A stretch of DNA of 64,000 nt from Escherichia coli (GTDB taxonomy: Bacteria > Pseudomonadota > Gammaproteobacteria > Enterobacterales > Enterobacteriaceae). Shown here piece after piece: positions 39,937 through 43,616 of the stretch (positions are counted from its first letter, which is position 1; the number at the start of each line of letters is the position of its first letter). The notes below the pieces were generated by a model. The model made no database searches. It saw nothing but the letters and a program-made list of their open reading frames with translations, and was not told the origin of the DNA. The stretch is taken from assembly GCF_003991155.1 (NCBI RefSeq), contig NZ_CP031293.1. One strand, written 5' to 3'. The position numbers were made by a program, and so were the translations under genes.

Positions 39937-40646
39937 AAATCGAACTGACGGTGAATGGACTAAAGGTACAGGCGCAGTACTCTGATGATGAAATTGAAAA
40001 TGTACATAAACCATTGCTGCGTATGCTGGCGGCCTTACAGACAGTAAATCCGCAGCGGCGTACGGTGGTTTTTCTTTGCGCTCCGCCGGGGACGGGTAAA
40101 TCTACCCTAACCACCTTCTGGGAATATCTCGCGCAACAAGACCCGGAACTGCCCGCTATTCAGACGCTGCCGATGGATGGTTTTCACCATTACAATAGCT
40201 GGCTGGATGTGCATCAATTGCGACCCTTCAAAGGCGCACCAGAGACATTCAACGTTGCGAAACTGGCGGAAAATCTGTGCCGGGTTGTGGAAGGGGATTG
40301 TACGTGGCCGCAGTACGATCGACAAAAGCATGATCCTGTTGAAGATGTGTTGCACGTTACCGCACCACTTGTCATCGTCGAAGGAAACTGGTTGTTGTTG
40401 GACGACGAGAAGTGGTGCCAGCTTGCGCAATTTTGTGATTTCTCGATCTTTATCAAAGCTCCCGCATCTGCGTTGCGGGAGCGTCTGGTGGGGCGCAAGC
40501 TGGCGGGAGGGTTATCGCTGGCAGACGCAGAAGCCTTTTATGACCGTACCGACGGGCCGAATGTTCGCCGGGTGCTGGAAGAGAGTCTGCCTGCAAATTT
40601 GACCTTAATGATGACCGCTACGGGTGAATATCGTCTGATGGATTAA
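39933..40646 (+). CDS. yggC: P-loop nucleoside/pantothenate-kinase-like protein YggC
   Basis: 237 aa; Walker A 'CAPPGTGKSTL'. Confidence 0.85.
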   Translation: MKIELTVNGLKVQAQYSDDEIENVHKPLLRMLAALQTVNPQRRTVVFLCAPPGTGKSTLTTFWEYLAQQDPELPAIQTLPMDGFHHYNSWLDVHQLRPFKGAPETFNVAKLAENLCRVVEGDCTWPQYDRQKHDPVEDVLHVTAPLVIVEGNWLLLDDEKWCQLAQFCDFSIFIKAPASALRERLVGRKLAGGLSLADAEAFYDRTDGPNVRRVLEESLPANLTLMMTATGEYRLMD

Positions 40647-41250
40647 CGTTCCTGATTACACCATCTTCCAGTCGCACCACACGAGAGAAATGACGCCGGG
40701 TAAATGCGGCGTCATGACTGATTGCTACGACGCTCGTGCCTCGCTGGCGGCACTTTTCCAGCCAGCTTTCAAACACGCTCAACCAATTTTCGTCAAAATC
40801 CCGACTCGGCTCGTCCAGTAGCAATAGGGGTGGAGAGAGTGCTTCCAGGCTGGCGACGGCGACCATCCGTCGCTGCGCACTATGCAGATCTAACGGATGC
40901 GCGCTGGCAGTGTCTGCTAACTGGCAGCATTGCAGGGCAGCATTGGTACGTTGAGTGATTTCATCCGCCGGGCATTTTTGCAGTTTCAAACCAAATGCGA
41001 TCTCGTCAGCAACAGTGCTGTGAAAAAGCTGGTTTTCCGCGTCCTGAAACAGTACGCCAATCTTTGCCGCGCGCTGGCGGTTTTTCAGGTTTTTCATCGC
41101 TTGTTGTTGCAGCATAACCGTACCGGCTGTGGGCGTAAGAAGACCTGCCATTACTCGTAACAGCGTCGATTTTCCCGCGCCAGGCCAGCGATAAGATATC
41201 TGATTTAACGTTAACATAGTGGCTGGAGCGCTCCGTTTTGCAATTGCCAC
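40618..41250 (-). CDS. ABC-type ATPase, degenerate second domain/subunit of an ECF transporter (possibly a frameshifted fusion with the upstream ATPase)
   Basis: Walker A remnant 'PGAGKSTLL', Q-loop 'VLFQDAENQ', degenerate signature 'HSAQRRM', Walker B 'LLLLDEPS', H-loop 'ISHD'; N-terminus shorter than a canonical ABC domain; 40-nt out-of-frame overlap with the upstream ATPase ORF. Confidence 0.7.
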   Translation of the reverse strand: MAIAKRSAPATMLTLNQISYRWPGAGKSTLLRVMAGLLTPTAGTVMLQQQAMKNLKNRQRAAKIGVLFQDAENQLFHSTVADEIAFGLKLQKCPADEITQRTNAALQCCQLADTASAHPLDLHSAQRRMVAVASLEALSPPLLLLDEPSRDFDENWLSVFESWLEKCRQRGTSVVAISHDAAFTRRHFSRVVRLEDGVIRNVNPSDDIHP

Positions 41251-41894
41251 GCTTGCTGGCAGTGGTTCAGGAAAGGTGTGTGATGACGTTCAAAAAGAAT
41301 AATCAGCGAACCACGTTCAAGCGCCCAGTGTTGTAAGCGCTGCAACAGCATTTCGCGGGCCTGCGGCGTCAGGCGGCTAAAGGCTTCATCAAGAATTAAG
41401 AGCTTTGGCTGCATCGCGATGGCGCAGGCGATGACCACACGCTGTGTCTCTCCACCGGAGAGTGTTGCCGGGTGACGATGGCGCAACGACTGGCACTCGG
41501 TCAGGGCCAGGGCGGCGTCAATCCGCGCCATAATCTCTTTTTCAGCAAGACACAGATTTTCTGGCCCAAAGGCAACTTCTTCTTCCACGCTAAAGGTACA
41601 GCCGGAGAGCTGCAAATAGGGCGATTGCTGGACGAGCTGGATGGTGGCGGATTGTTCATTAAGCGGGAGACGCCCAATGGGCGTACCGAGAAGCGTCCCC
41701 GTGCCGGTTATCTCTCCTGGTAGAAAGTCCGGATACCAGCCCGCCATCAGCTGCGCCAGCGTACTTTTGCCACTGCCGTTGTCACCAAAGATGGCGACCA
41801 TCCCCGGTTTGACATAGTGAAAGTCATAACAGAACGGAGGATGCGTTGAGTGTGTCGGGCAATAGCGAAACTGTTCTAACGTAACCATATCCAC
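41211..41894 (-). CDS. ABC-type ATPase (ECF transporter A component)
   Basis: Walker A 'GDNGSGKST', Q-loop 'LVQQSP', signature 'LSGGETQRV', Walker B 'LLILDEAF'. Confidence 0.85.
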   Translation of the reverse strand: MDMVTLEQFRYCPTHSTHPPFCYDFHYVKPGMVAIFGDNGSGKSTLAQLMAGWYPDFLPGEITGTGTLLGTPIGRLPLNEQSATIQLVQQSPYLQLSGCTFSVEEEVAFGPENLCLAEKEIMARIDAALALTECQSLRHRHPATLSGGETQRVVIACAIAMQPKLLILDEAFSRLTPQAREMLLQRLQHWALERGSLIILFERHHTPFLNHCQQAWQLQNGALQPLC

Positions 41895-42583
41895 GCTCCG
41901 AATTCAGCCAGCATTAGCAATATCATGGCGTAACGTGCTACGCGTTGTAGGGTGCTATCGGCTGGTGCCCATAACGTAGTGCGCCTATTGTTGATTCGAA
42001 ATGCCCGCATATCCAGCGCCGCACCACGGACAGCAAGATCGTTTAGCGCATTGTGTGTTAGCGGAATAATTAACGCGGGCATCGCACGTAAACGCTGATA
42101 CCAGCCCTCATCCAGCGGCACGCCGCGGGCGCGCTGCGCTTCATGAATAATCGCCAATTGCCGTTTTAACTGCTCAACGACCAATAACGGCCCGGCAAAC
42201 AGATAAGCGACGCCCGGCGGCAGGCGAGAAGCAAACAAAGCGCGGATAAAACGTTGCACGGGGACGTACTGCATCCACAACTGTGAGGTTGAAACAATCG
42301 CCAGAATCCGCAACCAGAGCGTAATAGCATGCGCCCACCGTTCTGGAGAGCGTGGCGTGCCGCTTAGCCATTCTGTCAGCCAGCCACCGTGCACCAGCCA
42401 CAGTCCAGCCCCCAGCGAGAACATCAGCCAGACGACATATTTTGCCCGCCGCCGCGTGGCCTTTAGCGCAATAAGGCAGAAAAAGGTCGCCGCGCTATAG
42501 ACTGGCAATATTGTCTGTGTGGGCAGGATAAGCGTGGTGCAGGCCGCCAGCGCCCACAGCGTTAAGGATGTAAACGGATGCAT
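41876..42583 (-). CDS. ECF transporter transmembrane (T) component, CbiQ/EcfT-like
   Basis: 235-aa multi-pass membrane protein with the T-component coupling motif 'EAQRARGV' (Ala-Arg-Gly). Confidence 0.8.
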   Translation of the reverse strand: MHPFTSLTLWALAACTTLILPTQTILPVYSAATFFCLIALKATRRRAKYVVWLMFSLGAGLWLVHGGWLTEWLSGTPRSPERWAHAITLWLRILAIVSTSQLWMQYVPVQRFIRALFASRLPPGVAYLFAGPLLVVEQLKRQLAIIHEAQRARGVPLDEGWYQRLRAMPALIIPLTHNALNDLAVRGAALDMRAFRINNRRTTLWAPADSTLQRVARYAMILLMLAEFGAWIWLR

Positions 42584-43162
42584 TTAGCGCACGGCAGCCA
42601 TTGCCGGAAAATGGCGCGTGGTGCGAATCGGCAGCTGACGCAGTAAAAGCCAGACAATCACCGCTGTGAGAATTTTATCGACCAGGTTCGCGCCTATCAC
42701 CGTAATCGCCACCGACTCCACCAGGTTTTGCCCCATCGAGTGCATCCAGGCAACGAACAAATCGGCTCCGCTTCCTGTCACGCCGCCGAACAGCGCAGTA
42801 CGCAGCGGTACAGCGACGACCGTTACCGCAAGCGTAATAATCACGCCGCTAACAACGACTTTTGGCAGGGTGCGAAACCAACCCGCTCGCGCCAGCCAAC
42901 CGGCGACCAGGCCGATGACCATCGCGACGGGCGCAAATGCGGCGGCGATCGGGTCGGTCAGCAATCCCCAGAGTAAATTGGTCAGTAAACCGGTTAGCAT
43001 CCCGATCACCGGACCAAGCAGTACCGCGCTAATAAGTGTGCCGATGGAGTCGAGAAAAATAGGTAATTTGACCATGCTGGCCAGTTGCCCGCCGATCATA
43101 TTGATGGCGATAGAGATAACGATCAACACCAGTGCCTGACTGGAAAAGTGGCGACGCGCCAT
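42584..43162 (-). CDS. ECF transporter substrate-specific (S) component, substrate unknown
   Basis: About 193 aa from 'MARRHFSSQALVLIVISIAINMIGG'; small six-helix membrane protein immediately upstream of the T component. Confidence 0.7.
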   Translation of the reverse strand: MARRHFSSQALVLIVISIAINMIGGQLASMVKLPIFLDSIGTLISAVLLGPVIGMLTGLLTNLLWGLLTDPIAAAFAPVAMVIGLVAGWLARAGWFRTLPKVVVSGVIITLAVTVVAVPLRTALFGGVTGSGADLFVAWMHSMGQNLVESVAITVIGANLVDKILTAVIVWLLLRQLPIRTTRHFPAMAAVR

Positions 43163-43184
43163 AAGAAAACCTCTCTGAAAATAG

Positions 43185-43616
43185 TTATTTAACGGGGGAA
43201 ATATGCAACTCGTCGTAACCAGAAAGCGCGCAAAGCTGGCGGCTAAACGCCAGTTCCTCAAGGCAGCCGATCACCAGTTCAAGCGTGGTCCGCACGGTAC
43301 AGCCGGGCATCATATGACCGCCAAGCATCGTGCCGTGTGGATCGGAAACGCAGAGATGAAGATGTTCACCACTCTGTTCCAGCGTGCCGTTCAATGCGAT
43401 GACTTCGAACTTACCGCTTAGCAGGGCTGTGTTTTCTTGCCCGGCATAGCGTAAGGCGACGTCAGTCAGACTGCCGGTACAACCTGCAATCCACGCGGCG
43501 TGGAGTTGTTGTTGCTGCGCGAAGGCGCGTAATTGGGAGAGAACTTCCTGCCCGGGGAGCAGGCGCAGCGCGTAAAAACGTGCGGAGGAAGAATATGGGT
43601 AGGGCAATGTCATCAT
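43185..43616 (-). CDS. PPC-domain (DUF296) protein, first gene of the ECF operon
   Basis: 143 aa 'MMTLPYPYSSSARFYALRLLPGQEVLSQLRAFAQQQQLHAAWIAGCTGSLTDV...'; same strand and tightly spaced with the transporter genes; family assignment from memory of the DUF296 pattern. Confidence 0.6.
   Translation of the reverse strand: MMTLPYPYSSSARFYALRLLPGQEVLSQLRAFAQQQQLHAAWIAGCTGSLTDVALRYAGQENTALLSGKFEVIALNGTLEQSGEHLHLCVSDPHGTMLGGHMMPGCTVRTTLELVIGCLEELAFSRQLCALSGYDELHISPVK

What the first reader, a model, noticed from the sequence alone, without database searches (positions are those of the whole stretch)
40618..43616. Five-gene ECF-type transporter operon headed by a PPC/DUF296 protein, inserted between yggC and epd
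On the minus strand, tightly packed: a PPC-domain protein (143 aa), an S component (about 193 aa), a T component with the Ala-Arg-Gly coupling motif (EAQRARGV), and two ABC ATPase ORFs. I recall yggC and epd being adjacent in K-12, so this is an accessory module. The substrate is unknown, and the cytoplasmic DUF296 protein as first gene of an ECF operon is an unusual, uncharacterised pairing. It could be a substrate-processing enzyme or a regulator.
Basis: partly seen in the sequence, partly recalled or inferred. Interest (0 to 1): 0.6.

Follow-up and report, generated by a model that had tools for sequence, protein, structure and literature searches.

The report
Known lmiA–ECF transporter operon (OI-119)
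This is the already described "O island 119" of pathogenic E. coli: the regulator gene lmiA followed by a four-gene vitamin-type (ECF) importer whose cargo is still unknown. In this strain a rare 78-base deletion has probably disabled the importer's motor.

Summary
The five tightly packed minus-strand genes at 40618-43616 are real: a PPC/DUF296 protein, an ECF S component, an ECF T component and two ABC ATPases.

The module is in 3318 of 5426 complete E. coli genomes and is absent from K-12. It sits next to epd in every enterobacterial genus sampled, so K-12 most likely lost it rather than this strain gaining it.

What this work adds:
- The PPC gene was followed by S, T and the two ATPases in every locus sampled where the PPC protein was at least 48% identical, across several phyla. 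No other neighbour is conserved.
- There is no riboswitch. There is a conserved FNR-like site and a hairpin that covers the ribosome-binding site.
- The two ATPases form one consensus and one degenerate ATP site.
- This window carries a 26-codon deletion (9 of 5426 genomes) in the Walker A region of the consensus site.
- The S component looks most like FolT/ThiT-type vitamin binders, not CbiM-type metal binders.
- The nearest structural relatives of the PPC protein outside its own family are zinc enzymes.

The substrate remains unknown.

The parts
43185..43616 (-). lmiA ortholog: 143-aa PPC/DUF296 (PCC) protein, first gene of the operon. His85, His87 and His101 are retained.
   Evidence: Pfam PF03479, E 2.7e-27. 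78% identical to the Salmonella structure 2HX0. 93% identical to O157:H7 LmiA. H85, H87, H101, E113, R18, R56, E71 and R126 are invariant in 38 homologs.
42584..43162 (-). ECF S (substrate-capture) component, 192 aa.
41876..42583 (-). ECF T (scaffold) component, 235 aa, with the coupling motifs EAQRARG and RGAALDMRAF.
   Evidence: PF02361, E 1.7e-4. An ortholog profile hits the EcfT chains 4HUQ_T, 4HZU_T and 5D3M_D at E 1e-9 to 2e-7. The motif residues are invariant.
41211..41888 (-). ATPase 1 (c3509 / z4270 ortholog). It has a canonical Walker A, Walker B and LSGGE signature but no H-loop histidine.
   Evidence: NCBIfam ECF_ATPase_1, E 1.3e-36. Motif alignment. The c3509 PCR primers match at 41448-41466 and 41637-41655.
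40618..41217 (-). ATPase 2 (z4271 ortholog), deleted allele of 199 aa. It has a canonical Walker B and H-loop and a degenerate signature (LHSAQ). Its 3' end overlaps the 3' end of yggC by 29 bp.
   Evidence: NCBIfam ECF_ATPase_2, E 2.8e-36, with the match starting only at residue 24. Alignment to the 225-aa allele.
41175..41182 (.). Junction of the 78-bp in-frame deletion. One copy of the 8-bp repeat CCGCGCCA remains. The deletion removes 26 codons, including the strand that leads into the P-loop and the first Gly of Walker A.
   Evidence: blastn against APEC O1. Protein alignment. The repeat is visible in the intact allele. The junction sequence occurs in 9 of 5426 genomes.
43774..43793 (-). 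The published PhoP box and footprint (GACTTACGTCACGTTTT, -84 to -68 of P1). It lies inside a conserved block that also reads as a CRP-type site on the epd strand. This DNA is shared with K-12.
   Evidence: PMC7667037. Sequence. Conservation. K-12 alignment.
43706..43743 (-). Published lmiA promoter P1: -35 TTGCAG (43743-43738), -10 TAGCAAAAT (43722-43714), and the TSS at T 43706, 90 nt upstream of the ATG.
   Evidence: PMC7667037, mapped. The -10 block GCGTAGCAAnAT is conserved across genera.
43676..43689 (-). FNR-like palindrome CTGACTTATATCAG (CTGAT-N4-ATCAG in other genera), centred 29.5 bp upstream of a conserved -10.
   Evidence: The TGA..T..ATCA core is invariant in 20 aligned leaders. 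It keeps a constant position about 70 nt from the ATG in 28 of 29 Enterobacteriaceae loci. Assigning it to FNR is an inference.
43648..43653 (-). Predicted -10 (TATTAT) of a second, class II FNR-type promoter P2. The predicted TSS is about 43641.
   Evidence: Conserved TAT(A/T)nT block. The geometry was computed. Not shown experimentally.
43623..43640 (-). Conserved hairpin or palindrome ACGTCCGAGTTTCGGAGT that contains the Shine-Dalgarno GGAG (43627-43624).
   Evidence: RNAalifold gives 7 pairs, kept in all 19 sequences, with one compensatory A-U to G-C change.
40647..43746 (.). DNA present here and missing from K-12-type genomes, running from just after the yggC stop to the TGGAATAAA block.
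   Evidence: The last roughly 70 bp of yggC are homologous but strongly diverged.

Best explanation
The locus is the lmiA-ecfS-ecfT-ecfA1-ecfA2 operon, known in EHEC as O island 119. It is a self-contained unit that enterobacteria inherited next to epd and that K-12-type E. coli lost.

Regulation. Transcription starts at the published PhoP-activated promoter P1. I infer a second start at an FNR-type promoter P2, which would explain the reported induction when oxygen runs out. No riboswitch is involved. A small conserved hairpin covers the ribosome-binding site of lmiA.

First gene. LmiA is a PPC-fold protein with an invariant three-histidine site, presumably binding a metal. It is reported to bind DNA and to activate ler and gadA/gadBC.

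Transporter. The other four genes build a dedicated ECF importer:
- The S protein captures a small substrate on the outside and topples in the membrane against the T scaffold.
- The A1/A2 heterodimer drives the cycle. It has one competent ATP site, made of the A2 Walker A, Walker B and H-loop plus the A1 LSGGE signature. It has one degenerate site, made of the A1 Walker motifs without an H-loop histidine plus the A2 LHSAQ signature.
- The substrate is unknown. It is more likely an organic micronutrient than Co2+ or Ni2+.

Linkage. The lmiA-type PPC gene was attached to this transporter in every locus sampled where the protein was at least 48% identical. I therefore infer that its original job concerns the transported compound, and that control of LEE is a later add-on.

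This strain. A 26-codon slippage deletion removes the P-loop entry of A2, so the only competent ATP site is probably dead and the importer inactive. lmiA itself is intact.

Shown: gene identities, orthology to OI-119, promoter mapping, distribution, synteny, the deletion and the motif asymmetry.
Inferred: the FNR control, the single-site mechanism, loss of function in this strain, and the non-metal substrate.
For: Identity:
- Domain and profile hits and fold matches.
- The PGAP annotation of an identical record.
- The window protein is 93% identical to O157 LmiA.
- The PhoP box, -35, -10 and TSS from PMC7667037 all fall at the expected distances in the window.
- The c3509 primers give the stated 208-bp product inside A1.

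Distribution and ancestry:
- 3318 of 5426 genomes carry it. K-12 lacks it.
- It lies next to epd in all sampled Enterobacteriaceae.
- There is no tRNA and there are no flanking repeats.
- dN/dS is 0.05-0.27 for all five genes.

Linkage:
- Every locus with a PPC protein at least 48% identical has S directly downstream, and T plus two ATPase domains wherever the contig extends far enough (fused into one protein in Synergistaceae). The 12 loci at 43% identity or below have no adjacent S or T.
- No other neighbour family is conserved.

Regulation:
- No Rfam hit. The leader is not unusually structured, z -0.08.
- Conserved blocks in the leader.
- Induction under oxygen limitation in O157 Sakai and anaerobic activation in Salmonella.

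ATPases:
- The motif asymmetry is conserved in Escherichia, Salmonella, Proteus and Aeromonas.
- The deletion is documented.

Substrate:
- The S component has no conserved His, Cys or Met.
- The nearest profile hit is FolT.
Against: - The FNR-like site has 3 mismatches to the consensus in E. coli and 2 in other genera. In any single sequence that is not better than chance.
- Only one TSS, P1, has been mapped experimentally.
- The original O157 study found no FNR site with a strict pattern search.
- No experiment shows transport, ATPase activity or site asymmetry for this system.
- Deleting z4268-z4271 gave no adherence phenotype.
- The T-component Pfam hit is weak on its own, and no NCBIfam model reaches its curated cut-off.
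- LmiA is acidic (pI 5.8) and has no AT-hook or recognisable DNA-binding motif. Its closest non-PPC structural relatives are enzymes. This sits uneasily with a pure transcription-factor role.
- A Treponema locus has S and the fused T-A-A gene without any PPC gene, so the transporter does not strictly need the PPC protein.
- Some ABC proteins tolerate changes near the N-terminus, so loss of function of the deleted A2 is likely but not proven.
Confidence: 0.75

Rival explanations
1. The LmiA-type PPC protein is first of all a zinc-dependent enzyme, or a metal- or ligand-binding partner, that modifies or senses the compound brought in by the ECF transporter. Its reported DNA binding would be secondary or indirect. 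The operon would then be a salvage module (importer plus processing enzyme), like many ECF-linked vitamin-precursor operons.
For: - ALDC binds Zn through an HxH...H triad with Glu and Arg nearby. The PPC family has invariant H85-x-H87...H101 plus E71, E113, R18, R56 and R126.
- The protein is acidic and has no AT-hook.
- The 'DNA-binding' label of DUF296 comes from plant AT-hook proteins, where, as far as I know, the hook and not the PPC domain contacts DNA.
- The PPC gene was linked to the transporter in every sampled locus at 48% identity or above, across phyla that have no LEE.
Against: - Two papers report EMSA, DNase I footprint, ChIP-qPCR, reporter and complementation data for direct DNA binding by LmiA.
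- No catalytic activity is known for any PPC protein.
- The PPC domain is about half the size of ALDC and gives no Pfam ALDC hit.
- The His triad is conserved in the whole PPC family, including members with no ECF neighbour. It therefore says nothing specific about this transporter.
- I could not superpose the triads, because no coordinates were available.
Confidence: 0.3
2. The transporter imports a transition metal (Co2+ or Ni2+), and the PPC protein is its metal-sensing regulator, as suggested for Salmonella STM3071.
For: - A thesis title and one sentence in PMC11481890 suggest Co2+ import.
- The genes are co-induced with nik, hyp and hyb genes under oxygen limitation.
- The PPC protein has a three-histidine site.
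- One Aminivibrio locus has HMA and P-type ATPase genes just downstream.
Against: - The S component belongs to the PF12822 type, not the CbiM/NikM type.
- It has no conserved His, Cys or Met.
- There is no CbiN/NikN-like partner gene in the operon.
- The 'cobalt' wording is the generic CbiO/CbiQ family name, and it also appears for unrelated ECF ATPases.
- The metal-gene neighbourhood is a single case among about 65 loci.
Confidence: 0.1
3. The cluster is a horizontally acquired pathogenicity islet, as the OI-119 literature states, inserted between yggC and epd in pathogenic lineages.
For: - It is absent from K-12.
- GC is somewhat higher than the flanks, 0.54-0.59 against about 0.47-0.53.
- The S protein is 58-60% identical between Synergistaceae and Enterobacterales, which suggests ancient transfer between phyla.
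- The literature calls lmiA horizontally acquired.
Against: - It has the same position and orientation next to epd in every Enterobacteriaceae genus sampled, including S. bongori and E. albertii.
- The promoter region is co-linear and conserved across genera.
- There are no tRNA, mobility genes or flanking repeats.
- It is present in 61% of complete E. coli genomes, including non-pathogen sources.
- The K-12 junction retains the epd-proximal part of the shared regulatory DNA.
Confidence: 0.08

Closest known systems
[not shown]
   Same: Same five genes in the same order at the same site. LmiA is 93% identical. The PhoP box, the -35 and -10 elements and the TSS position are identical.
   Different: This allele has the 78-bp deletion in the z4271 ortholog. 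Whether this strain has LEE, the published LmiA target, is unknown. The OI-119 papers list z4268 and z4269 as hypothetical proteins, whereas here they are shown to be the ECF S and T components.
Salmonella STM3071-STM3075 (PDB 2HX0/2NMU for STM3071)
   Same: Orthologous operon at the same epd-yggC site. Proteins are 68-90% identical in S. bongori. It is described as a five-gene ECF operon that is anaerobically activated.
   Different: The Co2+ proposal for Salmonella is not supported by the features of the S component found here.
Group-I (dedicated) ECF transporters, e.g. BioMNY and CbiMNQO
   Same: The S, T and ATPase genes share one operon, and there is no solute-binding protein.
   Different: - The S component is a PF12822/FolT-like protein rather than BioY or CbiM.
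- The two ATPases differ from each other and form one degenerate site, instead of a homodimer.
- In Enterobacteriaceae both ATPases (225 aa) lack the C-terminal extension that the Proteus and Aeromonas orthologs keep.
- A PPC gene is attached in every sampled ortholog locus.
Folate ECF S component FolT (5D0Y, 5D3M, 4Z7F; TIGR04518)
Alpha-acetolactate decarboxylase and PTD012 (the zinc enzymes nearest in fold to the PPC domain)
   Different: The PPC domain is about half the size of ALDC. It has no detectable sequence-family match and no known catalysis.
Plant AT-hook AHL proteins (PPC domain)
   Same: Same Pfam domain, PF03479.
   Different: There is no AT-hook (no RGRP). The bacterial proteins keep the His triad.

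Membership tests
ECF (energy-coupling factor) ABC importers | Small integral-membrane S component with the six-helix S fold | tested here: met
   [not shown]
ECF (energy-coupling factor) ABC importers | T component of the EcfT/CbiQ family with two Arg-containing coupling-helix motifs | tested here: met
   PF02361, E 1.7e-4. An ortholog profile hits EcfT chains at E 1e-9. EAQxARG and R...AALDxRAF are invariant or nearly so.
ECF (energy-coupling factor) ABC importers | Two ABC ATPase domains of the EcfA/CbiO type and no extracytoplasmic solute-binding protein | tested here: met
   The best NCBIfam hits are ECF_ATPase_1 and ECF_ATPase_2 (E about 1e-36), below the equivalog cut-offs. There is no SBP gene in the operon or conserved nearby.
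ECF (energy-coupling factor) ABC importers | ATP-dependent uptake of a substrate | not testable with these tools
   No uptake data exist in the papers read.
NCBIfam NF045596 'CD3073 family putative ECF S component' | Score at or above the curated cut-off of 180 bits | tested here: not met
   136.2 bits. It is the closest named family, but the protein is not a member by the curated threshold.
FolT family (TIGR04518) | Score at or above 60 bits | tested here: not met
   18.7 bits, E 0.0011. The profile-to-PDB FolT hit has E 8e-6.
Metal ECF transporters (CbiMNQO/NikMNQO) | CbiM/NikM-type S component with a CbiN/NikN partner | tested here: not met
   [not shown]
PPC/DUF296 (Pfam PF03479) | Domain match and fold | tested here: met
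   [not shown]
[not shown]
   93% identity. Same five-gene context in O157:H7. The published promoter elements are present at the published distances.
[not shown]
   Known only for O157:H7. No match to the LmiA footprint motif in the 64-kb window.
AT-hook DNA-binding proteins (AHL/PD1 type) | AT-hook RGRP core | tested here: not met
   No RGRP. pI 5.8.
Riboswitch-controlled ECF operons | A known riboswitch in the leader | tested here: not met
   No relevant Rfam match at E up to 5 over 40400-44100. Leader folding z-score is -0.08.
Mobile genomic island | tRNA or att site, integrase, flanking repeats, variable location | tested here: not met
   No tRNA. No flanking repeats. No mobility ORFs. 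Fixed position next to epd across genera.
Anti-phage defence systems (PADLOC) | Match to a defence protein model beyond the generic P-loop | tested here: not met
   Only short Walker-motif matches for the ATPases, and none for the PPC, S or T proteins.

The most novel reading that the evidence does not exclude
The ECF importer carries a micronutrient class not yet assigned to any S-component family. It would be needed in the oxygen-poor, low-Mg2+ gut. The attached LmiA-type PPC protein would be a zinc-site protein, related in fold to acetolactate decarboxylase, that binds or converts that compound. Its effects on virulence genes would then be read-outs of the compound's availability rather than plain transcription-factor activity.
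Probability: 0.25. Interest if true: 0.6.

Novelty: already known. Interest (0 to 1): 0.3.

Why it matters
The locus is already in the literature under three names, for different reasons:
- a virulence regulator island in EHEC (OI-119/lmiA);
- a "UPEC-specific" PCR marker (c3509);
- an anaerobically induced ECF operon in Salmonella.

Those three threads have not been joined. z4268 and z4269 are still listed as hypothetical proteins in the EHEC papers.

Recognising that lmiA is the conserved first gene of an ancestral ECF importer reframes LmiA. Its LEE control must be a recent co-option. Its original role, and the transporter's cargo, are open and testable.

There are two practical points. c3509 marks 61% of complete E. 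coli genomes, including O157:H7, so it is not UPEC-specific. Strains of this window's lineage probably carry a dead importer with a live regulator, which makes them a natural separation-of-function allele.

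Tried and rejected
- Riboswitch in the leader. The Rfam E-value scan found only a chance IRES match inside the T gene, and the leader fold is no better than shuffles.
- Sigma-70 and terminator pattern scan. Nothing useful in the leader, and the counts were at chance level.
- Strict FNR consensus search with up to 2 mismatches. It misses the E. coli site and is at chance level window-wide. The case for FNR rests on cross-genus conservation only. Morganellaceae, Aeromonas and the others have no such site.
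- Substrate hint from gene neighbourhood. Clustering all flanking ORFs from 69 loci found no conserved family beyond the five genes. Neighbours in the Synergistaceae and Aeromonas loci were unrelated.
- Sequence search of S against PDB with a single sequence found nothing. Only the ortholog profile reached FolT.
- LmiA footprint motif in the window, as a test for an autoregulatory operator: no match with up to 3 mismatches.
- Defence-system reading: rejected.
- Mobile-island reading: rejected.
- Salmonella sigma-54 ChIP site inside STM3072: the -24 GG is not conserved in E. coli.
- The first attempt at a genome scan with the wide PPC alignment failed because it had no conserved stretch. It was repeated with a narrower alignment.
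- The Salmonella FNR regulon paper and the supplementary RNA-seq tables of the 2024 LmiA paper are not held. I therefore could not check FNR dependence, or whether LmiA regulates its own operon.

Full report
**1. What is in the sequence**

On the minus strand between 40618 and 43616 lie five close-packed ORFs. A RefSeq record that is 100% identical over the region annotates them as follows:
- PPC domain-containing DNA-binding protein
- ECF transporter S component
- energy-coupling factor transporter transmembrane component T
- two ABC transporter ATP-binding proteins

My own searches agree.
- The first protein is a PCC/DUF296 domain (Pfam E 2.7e-27). It is 78% identical to the solved Salmonella protein 2HX0.
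- The second matches PF12822.
- The third matches CbiQ/EcfT weakly on its own and clearly as an ortholog profile (EcfT chains 4HUQ_T, 4HZU_T and 5D3M_D, E 1e-9 to 2e-7). Its two arginine coupling motifs are invariant.
- The last two proteins find the ECF ATPase models as best hits.

The genes abut or overlap, so they form one operon.

**2.

The distal ATPase (A2) is 199 aa here and 225 aa in other E. coli. A 78-bp in-frame deletion sits between two copies of CCGCGCCA. It removes 26 residues, including the strand that enters the P-loop and the first glycine of Walker A. The junction sequence occurs in only 9 of 5426 complete genomes, out of 3318 that carry the cluster.

**3. It is a known locus**

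Full-text searches led to three separate threads.
- The primers for the "UPEC-specific" marker c3509 match the window exactly and bracket 208 bp inside ATPase 1.

The window's LmiA is 93% identical to the O157:H7 protein. The published PhoP box (-84 to -68), the -35 TTGCAG, the -10 TAGCAAAAT and the TSS 90 nt upstream of the ATG all fall at exactly those distances in the window. Orthology is therefore established. In the EHEC papers z4268 and z4269 are still "hypothetical proteins".

**4. Inserted or lost?**

K-12-type genomes have yggC and epd adjacent. The DNA from just after the yggC stop to about 43746 is missing there.

However, the same five genes sit divergent from epd in S. bongori and in every Enterobacteriaceae genus recovered by a genome scan. 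In many of these loci yggC follows the operon. There is no tRNA, mobility gene or flanking repeat. All five genes are under purifying selection (dN/dS 0.05-0.27).

The simplest reading is an ancestral module that was lost in the 39% of E. coli genomes that lack it.

**5. The PPC-ECF pairing**

A scan of one genome per species with a PPC alignment gave 76 loci. I searched their six-frame ORFs with the window's proteins.
- Every locus with a PPC protein at least 48% identical has S directly downstream, and T, A1 and A2 in the same order wherever the contig extends far enough. These loci come from Enterobacteriaceae, Morganellaceae, Budviciaceae, Aeromonas, Ferrimonas, Craterilacuibacter, betaproteobacterial MAGs and Synergistaceae.
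- None of the 12 loci at 43% identity or below has adjacent S or T genes.
- In Synergistaceae, Aminivibrio and Treponema, T and both ATPases are fused into one protein of about 690 aa.
- The Treponema locus has no PPC gene.
- Clustering of all flanking ORFs found no other conserved neighbour.

The five genes are therefore a self-contained unit. Most of these organisms have no LEE. I infer that the original role of the PPC protein concerns the transporter or its cargo.

**6. Regulation**

No riboswitch or other Rfam family is present, and the 90-nt leader is not unusually structured. An alignment of 20 enterobacterial leaders shows several sharply conserved blocks:
- The PhoP-box region. It also reads as a CRP-type site (TGTGA-N6-TCAGA) on the epd strand, and K-12 retains it.
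- The P1 -10 element.
- A palindrome, cTGAT-N4-ATCAg (CTGAC in E. coli), at a constant distance from the ATG in 28 of 29 loci.
- A -10-like TATATT/TATTAT box 29.5 bp downstream of the palindrome's centre. That is the spacing of a class II FNR promoter.
- An 18-nt hairpin that contains the Shine-Dalgarno sequence, with one compensatory change.

The FNR reading fits two published observations. In O157 Sakai, ECs3799, ECs3800 and ECs3802 are listed as O157-specific ORFs, one of them a putative ABC ATP-binding protein, and I take them to be this cluster. The Salmonella operon is anaerobically activated. Still, the site is weak in any single sequence and has not been tested.

**7. The motor**

An alignment of A1 and A2 from four genera shows a conserved asymmetry.
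- A1 has the Walker A and B motifs and a canonical LSGGE signature, but no H-loop histidine (FER/LEQ). In Aeromonas its Walker B reads D-Q.
- A2 has canonical Walker A, Walker B and H-loop (ISHD), but a degenerate signature (LHSAQ).

In a head-to-tail dimer this gives one consensus site (A2 nucleotide-binding motifs plus the A1 signature) and one degenerate site. The deletion in this window hits the consensus site. This is why I judge the importer to be probably inactive here, while lmiA remains intact.

The Enterobacteriaceae ATPases also lack the C-terminal extension that the Proteus and Aeromonas orthologs keep.

**8. The substrate**

- The best named family is the uncharacterised "CD3073 family", at 136 bits against a cut-off of 180. 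FolT-family similarity is marginal.
- A profile of 11 orthologs reaches only FolT among solved structures (E 8e-6).
- The residues invariant across phyla are Asn, Gln, Asp, Thr, Trp, Arg and Lys, plus a glycine-rich FGGxTGSGxD loop. No His, Cys or Met is conserved.

This argues against the Co2+ suggestion and for an organic or hard-ligand substrate. It does not identify that substrate.

**9. What the PPC protein is**

The protein is acidic (pI 5.8) and has no AT-hook. The published DNA-binding data stand. But the fold and the invariant site leave real room for a ligand- or metal-dependent, possibly catalytic, function. I carry this as the main rival and as the most novel reading.

**10. Verdict**

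The finding is real and correctly read as an ECF operon headed by a PPC gene. It is also an already described locus, so its novelty is low.

The following were not found in the papers read:
- the PPC-ECF linkage in every sampled ortholog locus across phyla;
- ancestry rather than acquisition;
- the conserved FNR-like site and Shine-Dalgarno hairpin;
- the single-consensus-site ATPase pair;
- the lineage-specific deletion;
- the evidence against a metal substrate.

The cargo, and the primary role of LmiA, remain open.

Noticed in passing
window 39090-39405: yggF, the glpX-type class II fructose-bisphosphatase paralog, is a remnant. PGAP in the identical record marks 39090-39263 as incomplete (missing its C-terminus), followed by a 33-aa ORF. 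K-12 has the intact 966-bp gene. APEC O1 has the same lesion.
   Followed up: partly
window 39400-40646 versus K-12 (L003 1679-2925): The fumE-yggC flank is only 90.8% identical in nucleotides to K-12, and YggC is only 84% identical in protein. E. albertii YggC is 95% identical to the window's, and Epd on the other side is 99.7% identical to K-12. The genomes without the island therefore carry a strikingly divergent yggC allele.
   Followed up: partly
window 43778-43793: The published PhoP box of lmiA overlaps a block conserved in all Enterobacteriaceae and kept in K-12. On the epd strand it reads as a CRP-type site (window CGTGACGTAAGTCAGA, K-12 TGTGATGTGAGTCAGA). It may belong to epd regulation, to lmiA regulation, or to both.
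   Followed up: partly
window 43623-43640: The hairpin or palindrome ACGTCCGAGTTTCGGAGT contains the lmiA Shine-Dalgarno sequence. It is kept in 19 enterobacterial leaders with one compensatory pair. No function is assigned to it in the papers read.
   Followed up: partly
window 41448-41655: The 'UPEC-specific' PCR marker c3509 is ATPase 1 of this operon. The operon is in 3318 of 5426 complete E. coli genomes, including O157:H7, so the marker is not UPEC-specific.
   Followed up: yes
window 42729-42746: The position matching a sigma-54 ChIP site reported inside Salmonella STM3072 has lost the GG of the -24 element in E. coli (TGCC instead of TGGC).
   Followed up: yes
L062 6648-8747; L083 6578-8632; L084 6574-8646: In Synergistaceae, Aminivibrio and Treponema the T component and both ATPase domains are fused into one protein of about 690 aa. 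The Treponema locus has no PPC gene. The Aminivibrio locus is followed by HMA and P-type ATPase genes.
   Followed up: partly
window 43185-43616 and 41876-42583 versus O157:H7 (L085): Synonymous divergence within E. coli is unusually high at this locus: dS is 0.36 for lmiA and 0.24 for the T gene between the window and O157:H7. This suggests old alleles.
   Followed up: no
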